Below, piece by piece: positions 6,070-45,423 of a DNA stretch of 45,423 bases (the stretch's first letter is position 1; each line of letters begins with the position of its first letter). The stretch comes from a virus. Its lineage: Duplodnaviria > Heunggongvirae > Uroviricota > Caudoviricetes. A program made the position numbers and the translations under genes. The DNA lies in the IMG/VR virus record IMGVR_UViG_2563366980_000004. One strand, 5' to 3'. The notes under the pieces are model-generated. The model was not told where the DNA came from. It worked only from the letters and a program-made list of their open reading frames with translations, and did not search any database.

Positions 6070-6894
6070 TCAGGCGGTGAAAGTACCAATAAAGGTTTCT
6101 ACTTTGCTGTCCTTGAATTTCTCAACAAGCAGATCACGAAATTCGTTAGCCATTTCCTCCTGCACTGCTTCCAGCTGAATAATGCGCAGAACCAGTACAG
6201 GACGATCGCCAGTGAGAATGCTGAGGCGTAATTTAAACGGACGTTCTTTCAGGCCTTCAAACGGAACGCATTTAAATTCAAATGCCACTGGCATAATGTC
6301 TTTGGTTTTCGCTTCGACAGACTCCATCAGGGAGCGTTTGCCGCTGAAGTCATTGTCTTCAAAATCAGCGGTCTGGTTTGCTTCAATCGTGATTTTACGG
6401 ACTGCCGCAGCTGCTTTTGTTGCCTGAATAGCGTCACCATTAGCATCAAAGCCCACAAGGTAGTCGGCCCAGTCTTCAATCCATTCTGCCAGTGACTTCT
6501 GGGAGTTACGCTCGCCATTAACAGACAACAGAGCAGAGAACGGTGCTGTCTTTTTCAGTTTGAGAGTGGCGGTGTTATCTGCGTGACCTGGTTCATCAAT
6601 AGTACCCAGATTAAGCACACTGACAGCACGCATATTATCAGCATCGATAAAGCAGCGGGTGCCTTCATCTGCAAGATCTTTAGAATAACGGGTAAAGTCA
6701 TCGATGCTGGCAGTGGAAAGCGCACCACGGAAACGGAAGCGATTTAAATTAAATTTTTCCAGATCATGAATGCGGAAATTCTCAGGCAATGCCACAGCAT
6801 CGGCACCAATCTTACTGATAATTTCATTAACACCCTGAGCAGAAATAAGGGCATGGATTTGATTAATTGCGGTTGCGTCTAAGTTCTGAGACAT
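6070..6894 (-). CDS. DUF2303 family phage protein (YfdQ-like)
   Basis: 274 aa, same length and general sequence character as E. coli prophage YfdQ; conserved early-left position. Confidence 0.75.
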
Positions 6895-6959: not shown

Positions 6960-7322
6960 TTAACGACCAGCTGCGCGGAGTTTTCCGTCAGGTTCACCGG
7001 CAAGAGTCAGTAATTGTCCCTGGTCTTCCTGCAGAATAGTCAGGCGACCACCGCGATTGACATACATCGGCGTTTCGGTGGTGTCTTCTTCGGAAATTTT
7101 CCCGCGGTTAGTTGGGCGAACATATGAGAGTTTGTGTTTGATTTTCACACGGTTCTCATCAAACGGTTCGATTTCCAGATTGAGTGAGACCTTCCCTTTG
7201 GTTTTCGTGTTCATCACACCGGAAGCGACTTCACTTAGAACTGCGCCGATTTTTGTTTCAAATACGCCGCCGTCCAGCTCCCCGATAAATGCCTGCACAT
7301 CAGTACTGCGTTCACTAGCCAT
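6960..7322 (-). CDS. Hypothetical early-left phage protein (YfdP-like)
   Basis: Start taken at internal MASERSTD (ATG 7322); the upstream in-frame extension to 7508 looks non-coding (C/H/R-rich and overlaps a 10-bp inverted repeat). Confidence 0.6.
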   Translation of the reverse strand: MASERSTDVQAFIGELDGGVFETKIGAVLSEVASGVMNTKTKGKVSLNLEIEPFDENRVKIKHKLSYVRPTNRGKISEEDTTETPMYVNRGGRLTILQEDQGQLLTLAGEPDGKLRAAGR

Positions 7323-7950
7323 TTTGCTGCTCCTCATCATATCGACCCTGCAATGTCGGTTAGTTTCTCCACAAAACAGAGAAGAACACCTGCGGTGGTA
7401 GCCGCCCGGATGGATTGGGTTATGAGCCCGTCGTCCGATGATGTTCTTCTCTGTTTTGTAAAAAGAGCGGTACCAGCCGGAAGCAAGTGTACAAACTGGT
7501 ACCGCCAAAGCAGTGGCTGTTGTGGTGACCGGTGCTGATCTCCGGCTTGCGGTTATTTCAGACTCTCACGGGCATTTAATTGCCCCGCCGAACAGCTCTT
7601 TTCCGCAATAGCTGCAATGTCTTTCGCGCATCAGCCTGCGCATTCACCACAACGCTGAGAGCACTTAGCCAGTTACGGCACCACACTTTGTCGCGGTTCC
7701 ATAAATGCCCTCATCGTTGCACCCTGGTCTCTTCCCAGGCGTCAAACCGAATCGCCACGCTGGTTAGGCGTCTTATCAGCATCATCATTGACTTGCACAT
7801 TCCGGCTACCTGGTTTGTTTGCCCGAGCAAGGAGTGGATTGTCCCCTTTAACGTCCCCAGACCGCTAACGACGCATGTGCCATACGCCGTGTTACAACCA
7901 AATTTTGTTAGTACCTTGTTTGTTTGTCTGGAAAGAAAGATAAAATGAAG

Positions 7951-7989
7951 TTGCGCATTATGCAAGTGTTTTTGTTGCGAGATATGCAA
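7951..7989. promoter_or_regulatory. Candidate OL: two 15-bp TTGC-N7-GCAA palindromic operator sites
   Basis: TTGCGCATTATGCAA (7951-7965) and TTGCGAGATATGCAA (7975-7989) have the same half-site pattern as the site in the cI-cro intergenic region; positioned just beyond the cI terminator, where lambda-like pL/OL would be. Confidence 0.45.
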
Positions 7990-8044: not shown

Positions 8045-8737
8045 TTAATTGTGTCGCTTAAGGGTTTGTGACTGGCTGATTAAGACCTTTCCAAAGACCA
8101 TAAACCGGTGTTCATTTTCGCTGGTAATTCCCCATTCACGGTAAATCTGGTTATCAGAAATCACCAGTAGTTTGTCAGGTATCATTTGCAGTCGTTTGAC
8201 ATAAATTTTATCATCAAAACCAAATACATAGATACCATCTCCATCAAACTGATTGATACTGACATCAACGAAGATGAGATCTCCTGGCTCAATGGTTGGA
8301 CACATACTGTCCCCACGAACGTTGATAACTTTAATGTGATTGGCTGGCCGTCCGCCAAACATCGATACAGCATTATCAGTTCTGTATTCAATGGCATGAA
8401 TCACATCAATGACATCACCGCCCTGGATAAGGCCATTTCCCGCACTGGCACTGACATCCAGCATTTCAATACGGAATACATCCTTCACCTGCGCAACATC
8501 CTCACTAATACTGTTTTTACATACAGTATTACTTTTGAAGTCTGAGGTAAAGAGATCAGCAATATCAACACCTAAGCTCCTGGCAATATTACTCAGGGCT
8601 TGTTCAGTGAATTGTTTCTGCTTACCTGTTTCCAGGCGTGAGATATTCGCCGCATCCACTCCTATTGCTTCAGCGAGATCGGCGATTTTCATGTTCTTCG
8701 CCTGGCGAAGTTGTCTGACTCGGTTTCCTATGTTCAT
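8045..8737 (-). CDS. cI: CI-type prophage repressor (HTH_XRE + S24 LexA-like peptidase domain)
   Basis: 230 aa; N-terminal HTH (LRQAKNMKIADLAEAIGVDAANISRLETGK) and C-terminal S24 signature (RGDSMCPTIEPGDLIFVD...YVKRL); divergent from the cro-like gene. Confidence 0.9.
   Translation of the reverse strand: MNIGNRVRQLRQAKNMKIADLAEAIGVDAANISRLETGKQKQFTEQALSNIARSLGVDIADLFTSDFKSNTVCKNSISEDVAQVKDVFRIEMLDVSASAGNGLIQGGDVIDVIHAIEYRTDNAVSMFGGRPANHIKVINVRGDSMCPTIEPGDLIFVDVSINQFDGDGIYVFGFDDKIYVKRLQMIPDKLLVISDNQIYREWGITSENEHRFMVFGKVLISQSQTLKRHN
8509..8528. promoter_or_regulatory. Consensus-like SOS (LexA) box inside the cI coding sequence
   Basis: TACTGTTTTTACATACAGTA matches CTGT-N8-ACAG with TA flanks; in the HTH-peptidase linker region of cI. 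Confidence 0.35.
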
Positions 8738-9639: not shown

Positions 9640-10787
9640 ACAGTTTAACGGCAAATAACCGTTTGTCGCAACAGCTGGTGGTCAGTGTCGCTGCACACCT
9701 GTTGTTACGGCATGAATGCAGATTACCAAATCACCTGGCTGTAAGTAACCACAGAGAACTTTACCTGACTGTGGGGGGCGAGTTGTGCAGGAACTTAACC
9801 GCTGGTTTCGTGACGGAAGAGGACTTTATGTTCATGTTATTCGTTGGGAGCCAGAAACACAGCGCGTTATCTATCTTCGCAAAGACTACCCGCATGAGTG
9901 CTTTAGTCCTTTGTGGAAATTCAGGCGTGATTTTGTTGAGTGTGAAGGACCACCAGCACATTGATTCTGCCATTCCGGGACGTTACACTGTTCAGGCACC
10001 TTATAAAGCGGGTGCCGGGCGTGGAAACCCGGAATTCACCAAAGCGCACAACCGCGCTCTTGCGGTTTTTTTGTGTCATGAGCAGCATTACGCCCAAATT
10101 ATGGTGGGGCGTGCAGGGCCAACTTCGGTTGGGCCGGGTTCTTTGGTGACCGGTATTTCCACCCCTGTACGTCTCACCACCAATAAGGTCGTGGAAAGCC
10201 TTGGTGGTGAGTTATTAAAAATCACCAAAGAGGCTGCCATCATGGCTACGATCCCAACCCTCACTCAACCTGAAATTGCCATCGTTGATGGTCAGGCTGT
10301 TACTTCATCCCTGGCTGTTGCCAACTTCTTCTCCAAACGTCATGACGATGTACTGAAAAAGATCCGCACGCTTGAATGTTCCGCATCATTCACTGCCCGC
10401 AATTTTTCGGTGAGTGATTACACCGATTGCACAGGCCGCAAACTACCTTGCTATCAAATAACCCGCGACGGCTTTGCGTTTCTTGCTATGGGTTTCACGG
10501 GTAAACGTGCTGCCCAGTTCAAAGAGGCATACATCAATGCCTTTAACCAGATGGAGAAACAGCTTTCAAAGCCCGCTGTACCGAGCGACGTTGCACATAA
10601 CGCCAGCGTTCTCTGTTCCTACATTTCATCAATTCATCAGGTCTGGCTGCAGCAGCTTTATCCTATGTTGGCAAAAGCCGAATCTCCGCTGGCTGTTAGC
10701 TTATATGACTATATTAATGATGCTTCGGCGCTGGCCTGCCTCATAAATTTGTCGCTGAACCCTTCAGAGGTAAGGGGGCGCAAATGA
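9636..10787 (+). CDS. Rha-family phage regulatory protein (Rha domain from ATG 10242; status of the upstream 200 codons uncertain)
   Basis: C-terminal 182 aa (MATIPTLTQPEIAIVDGQAVTSSLAVANFFSKRHDDVLKKIR...) matches the Rha domain, with an AAGAGG RBS before 10242; the same frame is stop-free back to an ATGA overlap with the upstream gene but has odd composition and an internal terminator-like hairpin. Confidence 0.5.
   Translation: MNSLTANNRLSQQLVVSVAAHLLLRHECRLPNHLAVSNHRELYLTVGGELCRNLTAGFVTEEDFMFMLFVGSQKHSALSIFAKTTRMSALVLCGNSGVILLSVKDHQHIDSAIPGRYTVQAPYKAGAGRGNPEFTKAHNRALAVFLCHEQHYAQIMVGRAGPTSVGPGSLVTGISTPVRLTTNKVVESLGGELLKITKEAAIMATIPTLTQPEIAIVDGQAVTSSLAVANFFSKRHDDVLKKIRTLECSASFTARNFSVSDYTDCTGRKLPCYQITRDGFAFLAMGFTGKRAAQFKEAYINAFNQMEKQLSKPAVPSDVAHNASVLCSYISSIHQVWLQQLYPMLAKAESPLAVSLYDYINDASALACLINLSLNPSEVRGRK
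10050..10072 (+). terminator. Intrinsic terminator-like hairpin plus T-run (tR1-like)
   Basis: ACCGC-GCTCTT-GCGGT followed by TTTTTTT. Confidence 0.45.
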
Positions 10788-42919: not shown

Positions 42920-43228
42920 TTGGGTAGGATGAAAATGGATATAACACCTTTCCTTCATGCGCTTTGTGCTGCGGCTGCGCAGCTATTGATTGGTCTTTTT
43001 ACCGGGAACTGGGCTTACGGGGCGATAGCCGGTTGTACGTTCTTCATTGCGCGCGAACATACCCAGGCAGAATATCGCTGGATTGAAATGTTCGGGCATG
43101 GCAAGCGTATGAATATGCCGTGGTGGGGCGGTTTTGATCCTCGTGCATGGGATGTGGCAAGCCTGATGGATTTTTCTGTGCCGGTGGTGGCGTGTCTGCT
43201 GGTCTGGCTGTTGGTTAATCGTGGGTGA
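42920..43228 (+). CDS. Hypothetical small membrane protein
   Basis: 102 aa with two to three hydrophobic segments; possible alternative start at MKMDITPF; preceded by a hairpin terminator-like element. Confidence 0.5.
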   Translation: MGRMKMDITPFLHALCAAAAQLLIGLFTGNWAYGAIAGCTFFIAREHTQAEYRWIEMFGHGKRMNMPWWGGFDPRAWDVASLMDFSVPVVACLLVWLLVNRG

Positions 43229-43238
43229 AAAAAGGTGA

Positions 43239-43367
43239 GCTGTATATGCAACGGAGGAAGAAACCTCGTTGCTGGAAGCCTGGAAGAAGTATCGGGTGTT
43301 GCTGAATCGCGTTGATACATCAGTAGCACCGGATACTGAGTGGCCGGAAGAACCAGACACAATGTAA
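43239..43367 (+). pseudogene. tfa: 3' remnant of a tail fibre assembly (tfa) gene
   Basis: Start-less frame encoding ...[38 protein letters not shown]-stop, resembling the conserved Tfa C-terminus; an in-frame stop lies immediately upstream and there is no start codon. Confidence 0.5.
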
Positions 43368-43531
43368 GTGAAAAAGAAAAAACGCAGACACGACGTATGC
43401 AGGACGTGCTGCGGTTGGCTGGTGAACTTTCGATAGTGCGAGTATTGAATGATTTCCAGCCGTTACTGATTTTACGCATTTCACGCGCAAGAGAAATTGA
43501 ACTTTATCCCTCTGTCACCCCATGACGGGGA

Positions 43532-44290
43532 TTAACATTCTGGATTTTTTATTTCTAAATCAGATAAAGCATTAATTCTTATTTTTTCTAAGGCTTTATC
43601 CATGGCCCCCTTGATTCTGTATCCATAATCATCCGGTTCTTCATATTCCTGTGGGGACGGATTTGTACCAATATTCTCAATCAATTCATTTAAAATAACT
43701 GTTACTTCTTTATTAAGAAGAACTGCTTTAGTTAACATCATCTCTGTTAATGCTGTGAAGGCTAGGCTAAGTTTCTGTTGTAGCTCTTTATTTTTTAATT
43801 TTAGATCTTCATCGTTTAGTGCTTTATCACGGTCTTCGTGAGCCTGTTGTACTTCATCCCAAAACTGCTTTTCTTGTTCTTGATTAAAATATCCTTGATA
43901 ACTATTGGCTACATATGTTGGCATCATGTGAATCTCAATAATTTCAAATTCATTATCAGCCCATTTTTTTATACTAAGTAACTGTGTGTAAATGTACTCA
44001 TACATATCGTACTTTTTTTGCCAGATTTGTTGAGAAATCCACAACTCAGAAGTAATCTTTTTTTCTATATCTTTGATAGTTGTTGTATTTAATGCTAACT
44101 GCTTTCTGAGTATTTCATAGTTAGCGTTGGTAGCAGAAATTTTTGCTTTTTCAGTTATAAAAGAAACAATAAAGTTCACTATGAGAGCTACAATAATAAT
44201 AGCGAAGCTCAACCCCAAAATCTCTGTGGTTGAGAAATTGGATGACTGTAATGCTTTGATAAGTTCAAAAAACTGTTTTTCTGTGAGCAT
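43532..44290 (-). CDS. Hypothetical membrane-anchored coiled-coil protein (AT-rich cargo gene)
   Basis: 252 aa; ATG with AAGG RBS; single N-terminal TM (ILGLSFAIIIVALIVNFIVSFI) followed by an acidic coiled-coil region; AT-rich, antisense to the tail genes. Confidence 0.65.
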   Translation of the reverse strand: MLTEKQFFELIKALQSSNFSTTEILGLSFAIIIVALIVNFIVSFITEKAKISATNANYEILRKQLALNTTTIKDIEKKITSELWISQQIWQKKYDMYEYIYTQLLSIKKWADNEFEIIEIHMMPTYVANSYQGYFNQEQEKQFWDEVQQAHEDRDKALNDEDLKLKNKELQQKLSLAFTALTEMMLTKAVLLNKEVTVILNELIENIGTNPSPQEYEEPDDYGYRIKGAMDKALEKIRINALSDLEIKNPEC

Positions 44291-44388
44291 GGTGCCTTAC
44301 CAAAAATTAAGACTGTTATCTATATAAAAATGTTACCCAAGAGGGATTGTAATGAAATAACAAACCGGCACATTGGCCGGTTTGAAGT

Positions 44389-45423
44389 TCAAGGAGGTGA
44401 GATTGTAGAGGCGTTACCTTGTTCTATCACACCAGACCTAATCTTGTAACTACCAAGGATGTTGACCGTTTTATTATTTTTCATCGCGTCAAAAATTAAG
44501 CCTATTTCATCAGGGTCATTGATAAAACTGGTATCAACATAGATCGGGAATGAATCATCACCTGTTGGCTCATGGCAGCTTAACGTTAGCTTATCGGCTG
44601 AGCGTTTTATACTATCAATGACAACTTCCAATGTTTGCTGCTCTGACTTAGCCTTTTCAATTGGGTTCTTGATGATTTCTTGAACCTGACCTTGCGAAAG
44701 TTCAATATTGCTGGCCCCGCGGATCGTCACTTTGTCTGCATCAGATGCACCTTTAAGAACTCCAGTGTATGCCTTAGCGGTGTGCTCTTGGATACCTTCG
44801 GCGCGCTCTATCGTATCAATACCTTCATGTGCTTTTATTGCAGACAGCATACCATCGCGTAGAATTGTCATCCGCTCGGATTCTGCTCGCTGTTTTGCTT
44901 CTTCCTGTTGTAACTCAATAGTTTTGGTTTCGACTTGTGTCTGATGATCTAAGTAGGACGTACCGACCCATGCGCCGCCTAAAACTAAGACAGCAAACAG
45001 GAAACACATTGTTTTCTGTCTTGGGCTCATACCTTGTGTTACCTTCTCAAATGCGTTACCAAAGGAATCAATAAGTTCTTTAACTGAGGTGATAATTTCT
45101 GTACAGCCAGGTTTGATAGTAAAAACCAACTCTGCAGCTTCTCTATCCTCAGCAGTGAGCTTCTGTAAGTTAGAGGTTTTGTACTTGATTAGAGTAAAAA
45201 CCTTGTACATCTCAGTTTGAAATTCACAAATACCCTGTGCCAAACCTGCAGGCAGAGTACCATTATACTTATCTTCATCACCAAAAAATTTGAAATCAAT
45301 ACTTTCTAAGAAGTTTAACTTCAAATTTTCAATGTGGATTTCTTCGCCTGAAATAACTCGGTCGAAAATATTTCCTATATCATCAATATCATTGATTTCA
45401 TAGGTCTGAATTGCATCTTCCAT
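44389..45423 (-). CDS. Hypothetical protein with central TM segment and coiled-coil (AT-rich cargo gene; N-terminus may lie beyond the window)
   Basis: ORF runs to the window edge (344 aa seen); acidic N-terminal region, TM segment (TMCFLFAVLVLGGAWVGTSYL), Q/E-rich coiled-coil, C-terminal globular region; same strand and composition as 43532..44290. Confidence 0.65.
   Translation of the reverse strand: MEDAIQTYEINDIDDIGNIFDRVISGEEIHIENLKLNFLESIDFKFFGDEDKYNGTLPAGLAQGICEFQTEMYKVFTLIKYKTSNLQKLTAEDREAAELVFTIKPGCTEIITSVKELIDSFGNAFEKVTQGMSPRQKTMCFLFAVLVLGGAWVGTSYLDHQTQVETKTIELQQEEAKQRAESERMTILRDGMLSAIKAHEGIDTIERAEGIQEHTAKAYTGVLKGASDADKVTIRGASNIELSQGQVQEIIKNPIEKAKSEQQTLEVVIDSIKRSADKLTLSCHEPTGDDSFPIYVDTSFINDPDEIGLIFDAMKNNKTVNILGSYKIRSGVIEQGNASTISPP

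What the first reader, a model, noticed from the sequence alone, without database searches (positions are those of the whole stretch)
43532..45423. AT-rich two-gene minus-strand cassette of unknown function in the tail-fibre-distal cargo hotspot
Downstream of the tail-fibre genes and a tfa remnant sit two co-oriented, AT-rich genes antisense to the late operon, each encoding a protein with a single TM segment plus long charged coiled-coil regions (252 aa and at least 344 aa). Neither resembles any phage structural, lysis or regulatory family I can recognise. Position, composition and orientation are typical of horizontally acquired morons, and membrane-anchored coiled-coil pairs in prophage hotspots are often superinfection-exclusion or abortive-infection modules. 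The upstream gene touches the window edge, so the cassette may be larger.
Basis: partly seen in the sequence, partly recalled or inferred. Interest (0 to 1): 0.8.

Follow-up and report, generated by a model that had tools for sequence, protein, structure and literature searches.

The report
Two independent prophage membrane-protein cargo genes
At the tail-fibre end of an E. coli UTI89 prophage sit two real, strongly conserved, AT-rich genes for inner-membrane proteins of unknown function; they are separately mobile cargo genes rather than a two-part system, and relatives of the larger one usually lie right behind the phage repressor gene, where lambda keeps its RexAB phage-exclusion genes, so it is a good untested candidate for a new anti-phage protein.

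Summary
Two minus-strand genes are present, geneB (43532-44290, 252 aa) and geneA (44389-45423, exactly 344 aa). GeneA is complete: its ATG is the last three bases of the window. The window is the UTI89 lambdoid prophage next to prfC. Both genes are AT-rich (31.8% and 40.2% GC against 49.8%) and under strong purifying selection (dN/dS about 0.05). Neither matches Pfam, NCBIfam, PADLOC or PDB sequences.

The "pair" reading is not supported. The two genes are adjacent in one lineage only, the UTI89-type prophages (28 of 5,426 E. coli genomes) and an Enterobacter prophage beside ssrA. Elsewhere each occurs alone, even among close relatives, and a terminator separates them.

GeneA belongs to a large unannotated family (PHROG 6191; 977 clusters at 50% identity). 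In 19 of 31 distinct viral loci its relative lies directly downstream of a cI-type repressor, on the same strand, in the lambda rexAB slot. The model shows an N-terminal α/β domain, one TM helix, a helical hairpin and a C-terminal OB-fold, probably periplasmic. GeneB is an N-terminally anchored helical bundle.

The cassette is bounded by attachment-site relics (ssrA 3′ end, tRNA-Pro 3′ half) and a 76-nt direct repeat.

Most likely these are two independent lysogen-expressed exclusion or abortive-infection proteins. That function is inferred, not shown.

The parts
44389..45423 (-). geneA (UTI89_RS24940, old tag UTI89_C5141), 344 aa, complete. Predicted bitopic inner-membrane protein: N-terminal α/β domain (1-128), TM helix (about 138-158), disordered linker, helical hairpin (169-224), small β unit, and a C-terminal OB-fold (about 255-342, β1-β2-β3-α-β4-β5).
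43532..44290 (-). geneB (UTI89_RS24935, old tag UTI89_C5140), 252 aa. Short N-terminal helix, strongly hydrophobic TM (24-45) that continues as one long helix to residue 128, then four more helices: a membrane-anchored helical bundle.
44361..44384 (-). Intrinsic-terminator-like hairpin (CAAACCGGCCAATGTGCCGGTTTG, then TTATTTCATT) 4 nt after the geneA stop codon, between geneA and geneB.
   Evidence: Terminator scan: 9 pairs, 6 G-C. Conserved downstream of geneA in Enterobacter, L043 and L044, including copies that lack geneB.
44291..44360 (-). 5′ region of geneB with a TAAGG ribosome-binding site. About 60 nt are partly conserved upstream of stand-alone geneB copies in other genera, so this may hold geneB's own promoter. 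No consensus sigma-70 site was found.
   Evidence: Alignment A4; promoter scan negative here.
43485..43527 (-). Degenerate relic of the 3′ half of a tRNA-Pro gene (attachment-site core), starting 4 nt after the geneB stop codon. About 70% identical to the intact fragment found at the same position in other genera.
   Evidence: Alignment A5. The Enterobacter copy is 98% identical over 51 nt to the tRNA-Pro gene of all 5,426 E. coli genomes. The fragment follows geneB in L006-9, L013-16, L029, L093 and L096, and follows geneA directly in L044.
43401..43476 (.). Copy 1 of a 76-nt direct repeat that brackets the cassette. Copy 2 (95% identical) lies 2,387 bp away, outside the window, just after the dinI stop codon. 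The same sequence is a conserved intergenic segment of many lambdoid phages.
   Evidence: the repeat finder family D1. It matches HK97, mEp460 and Stx phages, and accounts for most of the matches in 2,967 E. coli genomes.

Best explanation
Window 43532-45423 holds two separate single-gene cargo modules (morons), not a two-component system. Attachment-site recombination brought them together.

GeneA belongs to a large, unannotated proteobacterial prophage family. Its usual home is immediately downstream of, and co-oriented with, the cI-type repressor, the slot that holds rexAB in lambda and bstA in BTP1. The family is therefore expected to be made in lysogens. GeneA is predicted to span the inner membrane once, with a conserved α/β domain in the cytoplasm and a helical hairpin plus OB-fold in the periplasm. 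My best guess is that it protects the lysogen from superinfecting phages at the inner membrane. It would do so either by blocking genome entry (as HK97 gp15, P22 SieA and T4 Imm do) or by passing an entry signal across the membrane to abort infection (a Rex-like outcome).

GeneB is an unrelated, N-terminally anchored helical-bundle protein. It travels alone at the extreme end of prophages, abutting a tRNA-Pro attachment-site relic. It probably has an independent function of the same general kind.

In the UTI89 lineage a block of the form [ssrA 3′ relic – geneA – terminator – geneB – tRNA-Pro 3′ relic] was carried from an ssrA-adjacent prophage end into this lambdoid prophage, by recombination at a conserved 76-nt sequence.

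Shown: gene reality, purifying selection, family distribution, genomic contexts, predicted folds, attachment-site relics and repeats. Inferred: expression in lysogens, membrane topology, and any anti-phage function.
For: Real and constrained genes.

The genes are separable:
- Both genes occur together only in UTI89-type and Enterobacter loci (13 loci). GeneA alone is in 63 loci and geneB alone in 12.
- In complete E. coli genomes, 28 have both genes, 5 others have a distant geneA only, and 7 others have a distant geneB only.
- L043 (96% aa) and L044 (93% aa) geneA copies lack geneB.
- Klebsiella, Citrobacter and Aeromonas geneB copies lack geneA.
- A terminator lies between the genes.
- The two proteins are unrelated to each other.

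Rex slot:
- GeneA relatives lie directly downstream of cI in mEp332 (annotated pRM-cI-gene-Timm), PhiR12_1-5, phi458, Citrobacter and metagenome prophages, Rac-like prophages and E. coli MDK9L1.
- 19 of 31 distinct upstream ORFs in IMG/VR loci carry Peptidase_S24, and 18 carry HTH_3.
- Owen et al. 2021 (PMC8585504) describe the cI-N region as a mosaic hotspot that holds the abortive-infection genes rexAB and bstA, probably driven by the repressor promoter.

Architecture.

Family size and lack of annotation.

Attachment-site relics and repeat.
Against: - No experiment bears on function. The only published mention (DFI-seq, PMC5404293) lists both genes among promoter fragments enriched in bladder cells, which would fit a host-interaction role. 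That list is dominated by one contiguous chromosomal region, so the enrichment may be a regional artefact.
- The UTI89 copy of geneA is not in the rex slot, and no consensus promoter was found upstream of either gene. Expression in this lysogen is therefore unproven.
- Nothing matches in PADLOC.
- The OB-fold hits are to nucleic-acid-binding OB domains. That fits awkwardly with a periplasmic location unless the domain meets DNA in transit or binds something else.
- The topology rests only on charge bias (18 versus 6 of 34 sequences) and on the general rarity of exporting a 130-aa N-terminal domain without a signal peptide.
- The pair has stayed adjacent over dS of about 0.8, so a functional link in this lineage cannot be excluded.
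Confidence: 0.55

Rival explanations
1. One reading: the two genes form one obligate two-component defence module, for example a membrane sensor plus a membrane effector, expressed together.
For: Same strand with a 98-nt gap. The same arrangement, with a conserved spacer, occurs in E. coli and Enterobacter. The two genes have similar dS (0.72 and 0.91), which implies long co-inheritance. Both are membrane proteins.
Against: The adjacency traces to a single ancestral arrangement: the UTI89 copy still carries the ssrA relic of the Enterobacter-type context. There is no independent re-association. Each gene is alone in most loci, including close relatives. A strong terminator hairpin separates them. 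No PADLOC system matches.
Confidence: 0.12
2. Lysogenic-conversion factors that act on the host envelope or host-pathogen interaction (in the way of Bor or Lom) rather than on phages.
For: The strain is a uropathogen. DFI-seq listed promoter fragments of UTI89_C5140 and C5141 as enriched in J82 bladder cells, and deletion of the neighbouring 'C5139' raised adhesion and invasion by 25% (PMC5404293). The genes are cargo in a hotspot that also carries Lom.
Against: The DFI-seq list is dominated by one contiguous stretch (C5068 to yaaU), which suggests a regional artefact. C5139 is an antisense ORF dropped by RefSeq, and its deletion removes other features as well. The geneA family is spread through environmental and animal-associated Proteobacteria and sits in the repressor-adjacent slot of many phages, which points to a phage-centred role.
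Confidence: 0.15
3. GeneA serves the phage's own life cycle, for example a membrane sensor that feeds into the lysis-lysogeny switch or into prophage maintenance. GeneB would be unrelated cargo.
For: Tight, conserved linkage to diverse repressor alleles. A transmembrane architecture with domains on both sides suits signalling.
Against: The gene is dispensable to the backbone. Most lambdoid phages lack it, and the UTI89 prophage carries it far from its own cI, whose downstream slot holds other ORFs. Proteus copies sit in islands beside Abi_2 with no repressor. The characterised occupants of this slot reported in the paper read here, rexAB and bstA, are exclusion genes.
Confidence: 0.1

Closest known systems
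Lambda RexA/RexB abortive-infection system
   Same: Relatives of geneA occupy exactly the same position: directly downstream of cI, same strand, ending at a Timm-like terminator. They involve the inner membrane.
   Different: No sequence or profile similarity to RexA or RexB (Pfam; hhalign probability below 0.2%). One bitopic protein instead of a soluble sensor plus a 4-TM protein. The UTI89 copy is not in that slot.
BstA (Salmonella prophage BTP1; Owen et al. 2021, PMC8585504)
   Same: A single gene downstream of the prophage repressor. A widespread family that was unannotated before it was characterised.
   Different: GeneA has no match in PADLOC or Pfam. BstA is a cytoplasmic DNA-associated protein, whereas geneA is predicted to be membrane-spanning. 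No aba-like self-immunity element was examined.
Single-protein inner-membrane superinfection-exclusion factors (HK97 gp15, P22 SieA, T4 Imm, lactococcal Sie2009)
   Same: Prophage morons that encode small or medium inner-membrane proteins. HK97 gp15 is annotated as a 'moron product' followed by a putative terminator. The closest mechanistic analogy is a block of genome entry at the inner membrane.
   Different: No homology (Pfam found no SieB or Imm match at E ≤ 1). GeneA is much larger (344 aa against 62 aa for gp15) and has folded domains on both sides of the membrane, including an OB-fold.
SNIPE, a membrane-bound nuclease that cleaves phage DNA during injection (Saxton et al. 2026, PMC13190303)
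   Same: The concept: a constitutively membrane-localised defence protein that exploits the site of genome injection.
   Different: No nuclease or other catalytic domain was recognised in geneA or geneB, and PADLOC gave no match. The resemblance is conceptual only.

Membership tests
Lambda RexAB | RexA homologue (Pfam RexA family) | tested here: not met
   Pfam scan at E ≤ 1 returns nothing relevant for either protein. hhalign of the geneA profile against lambda RexA gives probability 0.1%.
Lambda RexAB | RexB homologue (4-TM membrane protein) | tested here: not met
   hhalign of geneA and geneB profiles against lambda RexB gives probability below 0.2%. Each protein has a single hydrophobic segment.
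Lambda RexAB | Position immediately downstream of cI, on the same strand | tested here: not met
   Not met by this copy, which lies at the tail-fibre-distal end. The prophage's own cI is at 8045-8737. Met by most relatives of geneA.
Lambda RexAB | Abortive infection with loss of membrane potential | not testable with these tools
   Needs infection assays.
Inner-membrane superinfection-exclusion proteins (SieA, SieB, Imm, gp15 type) | Prophage-encoded protein with a transmembrane anchor | tested here: met
   Prophage context. One hydrophobic segment in each protein, conserved across both families. Modelled as helices. This is a prediction only.
Inner-membrane superinfection-exclusion proteins (SieA, SieB, Imm, gp15 type) | Homology to a described Sie family | tested here: not met
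   No Pfam, NCBIfam, PHROG-annotated or PADLOC match.
Inner-membrane superinfection-exclusion proteins (SieA, SieB, Imm, gp15 type) | Blocks DNA entry of superinfecting phage without cell death | not testable with these tools
   Needs adsorption, injection and survival assays.
Multi-gene defence system (operon) | The genes co-occur across divergent genomes | tested here: not met
   Both genes occur together only in one lineage. GeneA alone is in 63 loci and geneB alone in 12. Searches agree.
Multi-gene defence system (operon) | Co-transcription | tested here: inconclusive
   Same strand and a 98-nt gap, but a 9-bp-stem terminator lies between the genes. No transcript data are available.
Moron (autonomous cargo unit in a phage backbone) | Foreign base composition and insertion between backbone elements | tested here: met
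   GC 31.8% and 40.2% against 49.8%. Bracketed by a 76-nt backbone repeat and by attachment-site relics.
Moron (autonomous cargo unit in a phage backbone) | Own promoter and terminator | tested here: inconclusive
   A terminator follows geneA. In other genera geneB is followed by the tRNA-Pro fragment and a hairpin terminator, but none was detected after the UTI89 copy. No consensus promoter was found for either gene. Upstream sequence is conserved.
OB-fold domain (C-terminus of geneA) | Five-stranded β-barrel with a helix between β3 and β4 | tested here: met
OB-fold domain (C-terminus of geneA) | Binds nucleic acid or oligosaccharide | not testable with these tools
   Needs binding assays.

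The most novel reading that the evidence does not exclude
GeneA stands for a new, widespread class of single-protein immunity in the Rex slot. In this reading it is a bitopic inner-membrane sentinel: its periplasmic OB-fold detects the incoming phage genome or ejection complex as it crosses the periplasm, and its conserved cytoplasmic domain then blocks entry or triggers abortive infection. The family, about 1,000 clusters at 50% identity, is absent from Pfam and from PADLOC v2.
Probability: 0.12. Interest if true: 0.75.

Novelty: new variant of a known kind. Interest (0 to 1): 0.45.

Why it matters
If geneA is an exclusion protein, it adds a large, previously unannotated family to the set of defences carried next to prophage repressors. 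It would also offer a tractable single-gene model for how a lysogen senses or blocks phage genome entry at the inner membrane. The model phages mEp332, PhiR12 and phi458 all plate on E. coli K-12 or C.

The finding also shows how cargo genes are shuffled between prophages. Here they move as small modules bounded by attachment-site relics (tRNA-Pro, ssrA) and short conserved backbone repeats. For genome annotation, it warns that adjacent, co-oriented cargo genes need not form a system.

Tried and rejected
Family and sequence searches that found nothing:
- Pfam, NCBIfam and PADLOC on both proteins gave only chance-level hits (GIT1_C, LeoBC, Specificity_I, PspC), all far below the curated cut-offs.
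- PHROGs placed geneA in phrog_6191, of unknown function, and gave nothing significant for geneB.
- PDB sequence searches with single sequences and with profiles found nothing.
- Pfam and PADLOC on 48 distant geneA relatives found no recurring family.

Structure searches:
- The AFDB50 fold library was unavailable.

Regulatory sequence:
- I considered a LexA box in the conserved 32-nt element upstream of geneA. The spacing is CTG-N9-CAG rather than N10, and L043 lacks the CAG, so I rejected it.
- The promoter scan gave no convincing sigma-70 site for either gene.

Other leads:
- ARAGORN and Rfam found no intact tRNA next to geneB, only fragments.
- The '91% variant' in strain SCU-306 is not a third allele. 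That assembly is frameshifted throughout.
- Literature searches for mEp332, PhiR12, phi458, the locus tags and the protein accessions found no functional study.
- The GenBank label 'T2SS GspM containing protein' on the PhiR12 homologues is not backed by any Pfam hit here.
Full report
**1. What is there.**
The window is the lambdoid prophage of E. coli UTI89 that lies next to prfC. Window 43400-45423 is 100% identical to NC_007946 5030425-5032448.

Two minus-strand ORFs occupy the finding. GeneB is at 43532-44290 (252 aa) and geneA at 44389-45423 (344 aa). RefSeq annotates both as hypothetical proteins with the same coordinates.

GeneA is complete. Its ATG is the last codon of the window. Several IMG/VR viral contigs end at exactly the same base, so the window edge looks like a prophage-caller boundary.

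Beyond the edge lie about 365 bp of non-coding DNA, a minus-strand DinI-like gene and then host prfC. The cassette therefore holds no further gene.

To the left of the two genes lie gpJ, lom, a tail-fibre gene, a Peptidase_S74 tail-fibre protein, a 102-aa hypothetical gene and a tfa remnant.

GC content is 31.8% for geneB and 40.2% for geneA, against 49.8% for the window.

**2. Are they genes?**
Yes. Each has dozens of full-length relatives across genera.

Between the UTI89 and Enterobacter copies, dN/dS is 0.045 for geneA (dS 0.72) and 0.053 for geneB (dS 0.91).

**3. Known families.**
Neither protein reaches significance in Pfam, NCBIfam or PADLOC v2. Neither matches PDB sequences, whether searched as a single sequence or as a profile.

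GeneA matches PHROG 6191, of unknown function, at E 7e-93.

Profile comparisons with lambda RexA and RexB, and between the two families, are at noise level.

**4. Structures (AlphaFold2 with family alignments).**

GeneA (pLDDT 82.4, pTM 0.71) has five parts:
- an α/β domain (1-128);
- a helix across the hydrophobic segment (about 134-158);
- a disordered linker;
- a helical hairpin (169-224);
- a C-terminal domain with canonical OB topology.

Flanking charges favour an N-in/C-out topology for geneA. The N-flank has K+R 2.4 and D+E 1.0, and the C-flank has K+R 1.9 and D+E 4.1; the bias runs 18 to 6 among 34 sequences. From general knowledge, a 130-aa N-terminal domain without a signal peptide is unlikely to be exported. 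So the hairpin and OB-fold are probably periplasmic.

For geneB the bias is small but consistent, in 35 of 38 sequences, and favours a cytoplasmic C-terminal bundle.

**5. Context of geneA relatives.**
- In phage mEp332 the homologue (43% identity) sits between cI and the annotated Timm terminator, where lambda has rexAB.
- The same position is seen in PhiR12_1-5 (67% identity) and phi458 Orf11.
- It is also seen in Citrobacter and metagenome prophages with three different cI alleles, in Rac-like prophages (74% identity) and in E. coli MDK9L1.
- In 52 IMG/VR loci, 19 of 31 distinct upstream ORFs carry Peptidase_S24 and 18 carry HTH_3. Most are co-oriented and end 23-130 nt before the gene.
- Proteus copies stand alone in islands next to an Abi_2 gene.

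Owen et al. 2021 describe the cI-N interval as a mosaic hotspot that holds the abortive-infection genes rexAB and bstA, probably driven by the repressor promoter (PMC8585504).

A full HMM scan finds 977 clusters (at 50% identity) with E ≤ 1e-3, and nearly all of the 150 best hits listed are 310-380 aa. They come from Enterobacterales, Pasteurellaceae, Oceanimonas, Pseudoalteromonas, Photobacterium and Massilia, and all are labelled hypothetical. Forty-eight diverse members share no Pfam or PADLOC family. Among distant members the N-terminal domain is the best conserved part, at 27% identity against 14-19% elsewhere.

**6. Context of geneB relatives.**
GeneB is rarer in viral contigs. Only 10 IMG/VR loci carry it, and six of those are the UTI89-type pair.

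Elsewhere it occurs alone:
- at a Klebsiella prophage end, next to SRAP and UmuDC genes;
- at a Citrobacter prophage end beside purB, near RnlAB, DinI and SRAP genes;
- as a single gene inserted between chromosomal genes in Aeromonas;

**7. Is it a pair?**
- Across all loci fetched, both genes occur together in 13, all UTI89-type or Enterobacter. GeneA is alone in 63 and geneB alone in 12.
- In complete E. coli genomes, 28 of 5,426 carry both. Five other genomes carry only a distant geneA, and seven others only a distant geneB.
- GeneA copies at 96% and 93% amino-acid identity (L043, L044) lack geneB.
- A 9-bp-stem hairpin followed by a T-rich tract lies 4 nt after the geneA stop codon. It is conserved whether or not geneB follows.

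The adjacency is old (dS about 0.8) but traces to a single arrangement. That is weak evidence of any functional link.

**8. How the block was assembled.**
Right after the geneB stop codon, the Enterobacter, Klebsiella and Citrobacter loci carry the 3′ 51 nt of a tRNA-Pro gene, 98% identical to the E. coli gene, followed by a hairpin terminator. UTI89 keeps a copy about 70% identical at 43527-43485.

In L044 the same fragment follows geneA directly. In Citrobacter a second copy follows another cargo gene, with DUF7380 and EMARD_N domains.

Upstream of geneA, the Enterobacter locus has the intact tmRNA gene. UTI89 keeps a relic of its 3′ end, outside the window.

The whole UTI89 block is bracketed by a 76-nt direct repeat (95% identity, 2,387 bp apart). 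That repeat is a conserved intergenic sequence of many lambdoid phages.

I infer that these are attachment-site-adjacent cargo modules. They were stacked by site-specific recombination and then moved between prophages by homologous recombination.

**9. Literature.**
The only mention I found is a DFI-seq study of UTI89 (PMC5404293). It lists C5140 (geneB) and C5141 (geneA) among fragments enriched in bladder cells. The list is dominated by one contiguous region of the chromosome.

The gene that study deleted, 'C5139', appears from the spacing the paper gives to be a 154-aa antisense ORF (43015-43479). RefSeq no longer annotates it.

I found no functional study of the mEp332, PhiR12 or phi458 homologues.

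**10. Verdict.**
The two-gene-module idea is not supported.

The best explanation is two independent morons that encode membrane proteins. GeneA is a member of a large, unannotated Rex-slot family and is the stronger candidate for phage exclusion at the inner membrane. Function and topology are inferred, not shown.

Noticed in passing
window 45421-45423; L037-L042 position 1: The window ends exactly on the ATG of geneA, and several IMG/VR viral contigs end at the same base. The window edge therefore looks like a gene-boundary cut made by a prophage caller. The prophage itself runs about 0.9 kb further, through regulatory DNA and dinI, to prfC.
   Followed up: yes
L001 10345-10375 (outside the window, upstream of geneA): A relic of the 3′ end of ssrA/tmRNA (GGTTTCAACTCCCGCCAGC-CCACCA). 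It aligns with the intact tmRNA gene that precedes the same gene pair in Enterobacter (L029 3192-3555). The UTI89 block therefore came from an ssrA-adjacent prophage end.
   Followed up: yes
L013, L015 and L016 at 6782-6805 and 10237-10260: Two copies of the tRNA-Pro 3′ fragment lie in one Citrobacter prophage end. One follows geneB and the other follows a DUF7380/EMARD_N gene. This suggests cargo modules stacked by repeated integration at a tRNA-Pro attachment site.
   Followed up: partly
L001 10060-10170 (outside the window); also L029, L043 and L044: About 170 nt upstream of geneA are conserved across different contexts. They include a 32-nt block (GCAATTATATACTGATAAAACACCAGGTTATG) and a short palindrome (GTGATttagATCAC). 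This may be a promoter or operator. It is not a canonical LexA box, because the spacing is N9.
   Followed up: partly
window 43015-43479 (-): The old locus tag UTI89_C5139 was deleted in a published DFI-seq study, which reported 25% more adhesion and invasion. From the spacing the paper gives, it appears to be a 154-aa ORF antisense to the 102-aa plus-strand gene, the tfa remnant and the 76-nt repeat. RefSeq no longer annotates it, so the phenotype cannot be assigned to a gene.
   Followed up: partly
window 42920-43228 (+): A 102-aa hypothetical protein (WP_001555785.1) with several hydrophobic stretches and no Pfam match lies between the tail-fibre protein and the tfa remnant. It may be another small cargo gene.
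   Followed up: no
window 6960-7508 (-) and 7711-7989 (-): Downstream of this prophage's own cI (8045-8737, HTH plus Peptidase_S24) lie two co-oriented ORFs of 92 and 182 aa with no Pfam match. They are the occupants of this phage's own 'rex slot' and are also uncharacterised.
   Followed up: no
L001 10740-10770 (outside the window): The DinI-like gene next to the cassette has a canonical SOS box (TACTGTATACAAACACAGTA) in its promoter region. The neighbours of geneB in other genera are often SOS-related (UmuDC, SRAP, S24 peptidase, DinI).
   Followed up: no
L034 (E. coli SCU-306): The apparent 91%-identity variant of the pair comes from an assembly in which nearly every gene in the region is frameshifted. 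The divergence is most likely sequencing error, not a third allele.
   Followed up: yes
P0185 cluster; L033 3357-4403 (phage phi458 Orf11): A distant 348-aa subfamily of geneA also lies directly downstream of CI in phage phi458. It is very common in E. coli and Salmonella, seen on at least 1,000 contigs, and is entirely unannotated.
   Followed up: partly
L010 6001-6759 (Aeromonas bestiarum): A 69%-identical geneB sits alone between chromosomal formate-dehydrogenase-type genes, flanked by about 450-490 bp of non-coding DNA that contains short TTCGAGT/TTCGAAT repeats. How a single gene was inserted there is unexplained.
   Followed up: no
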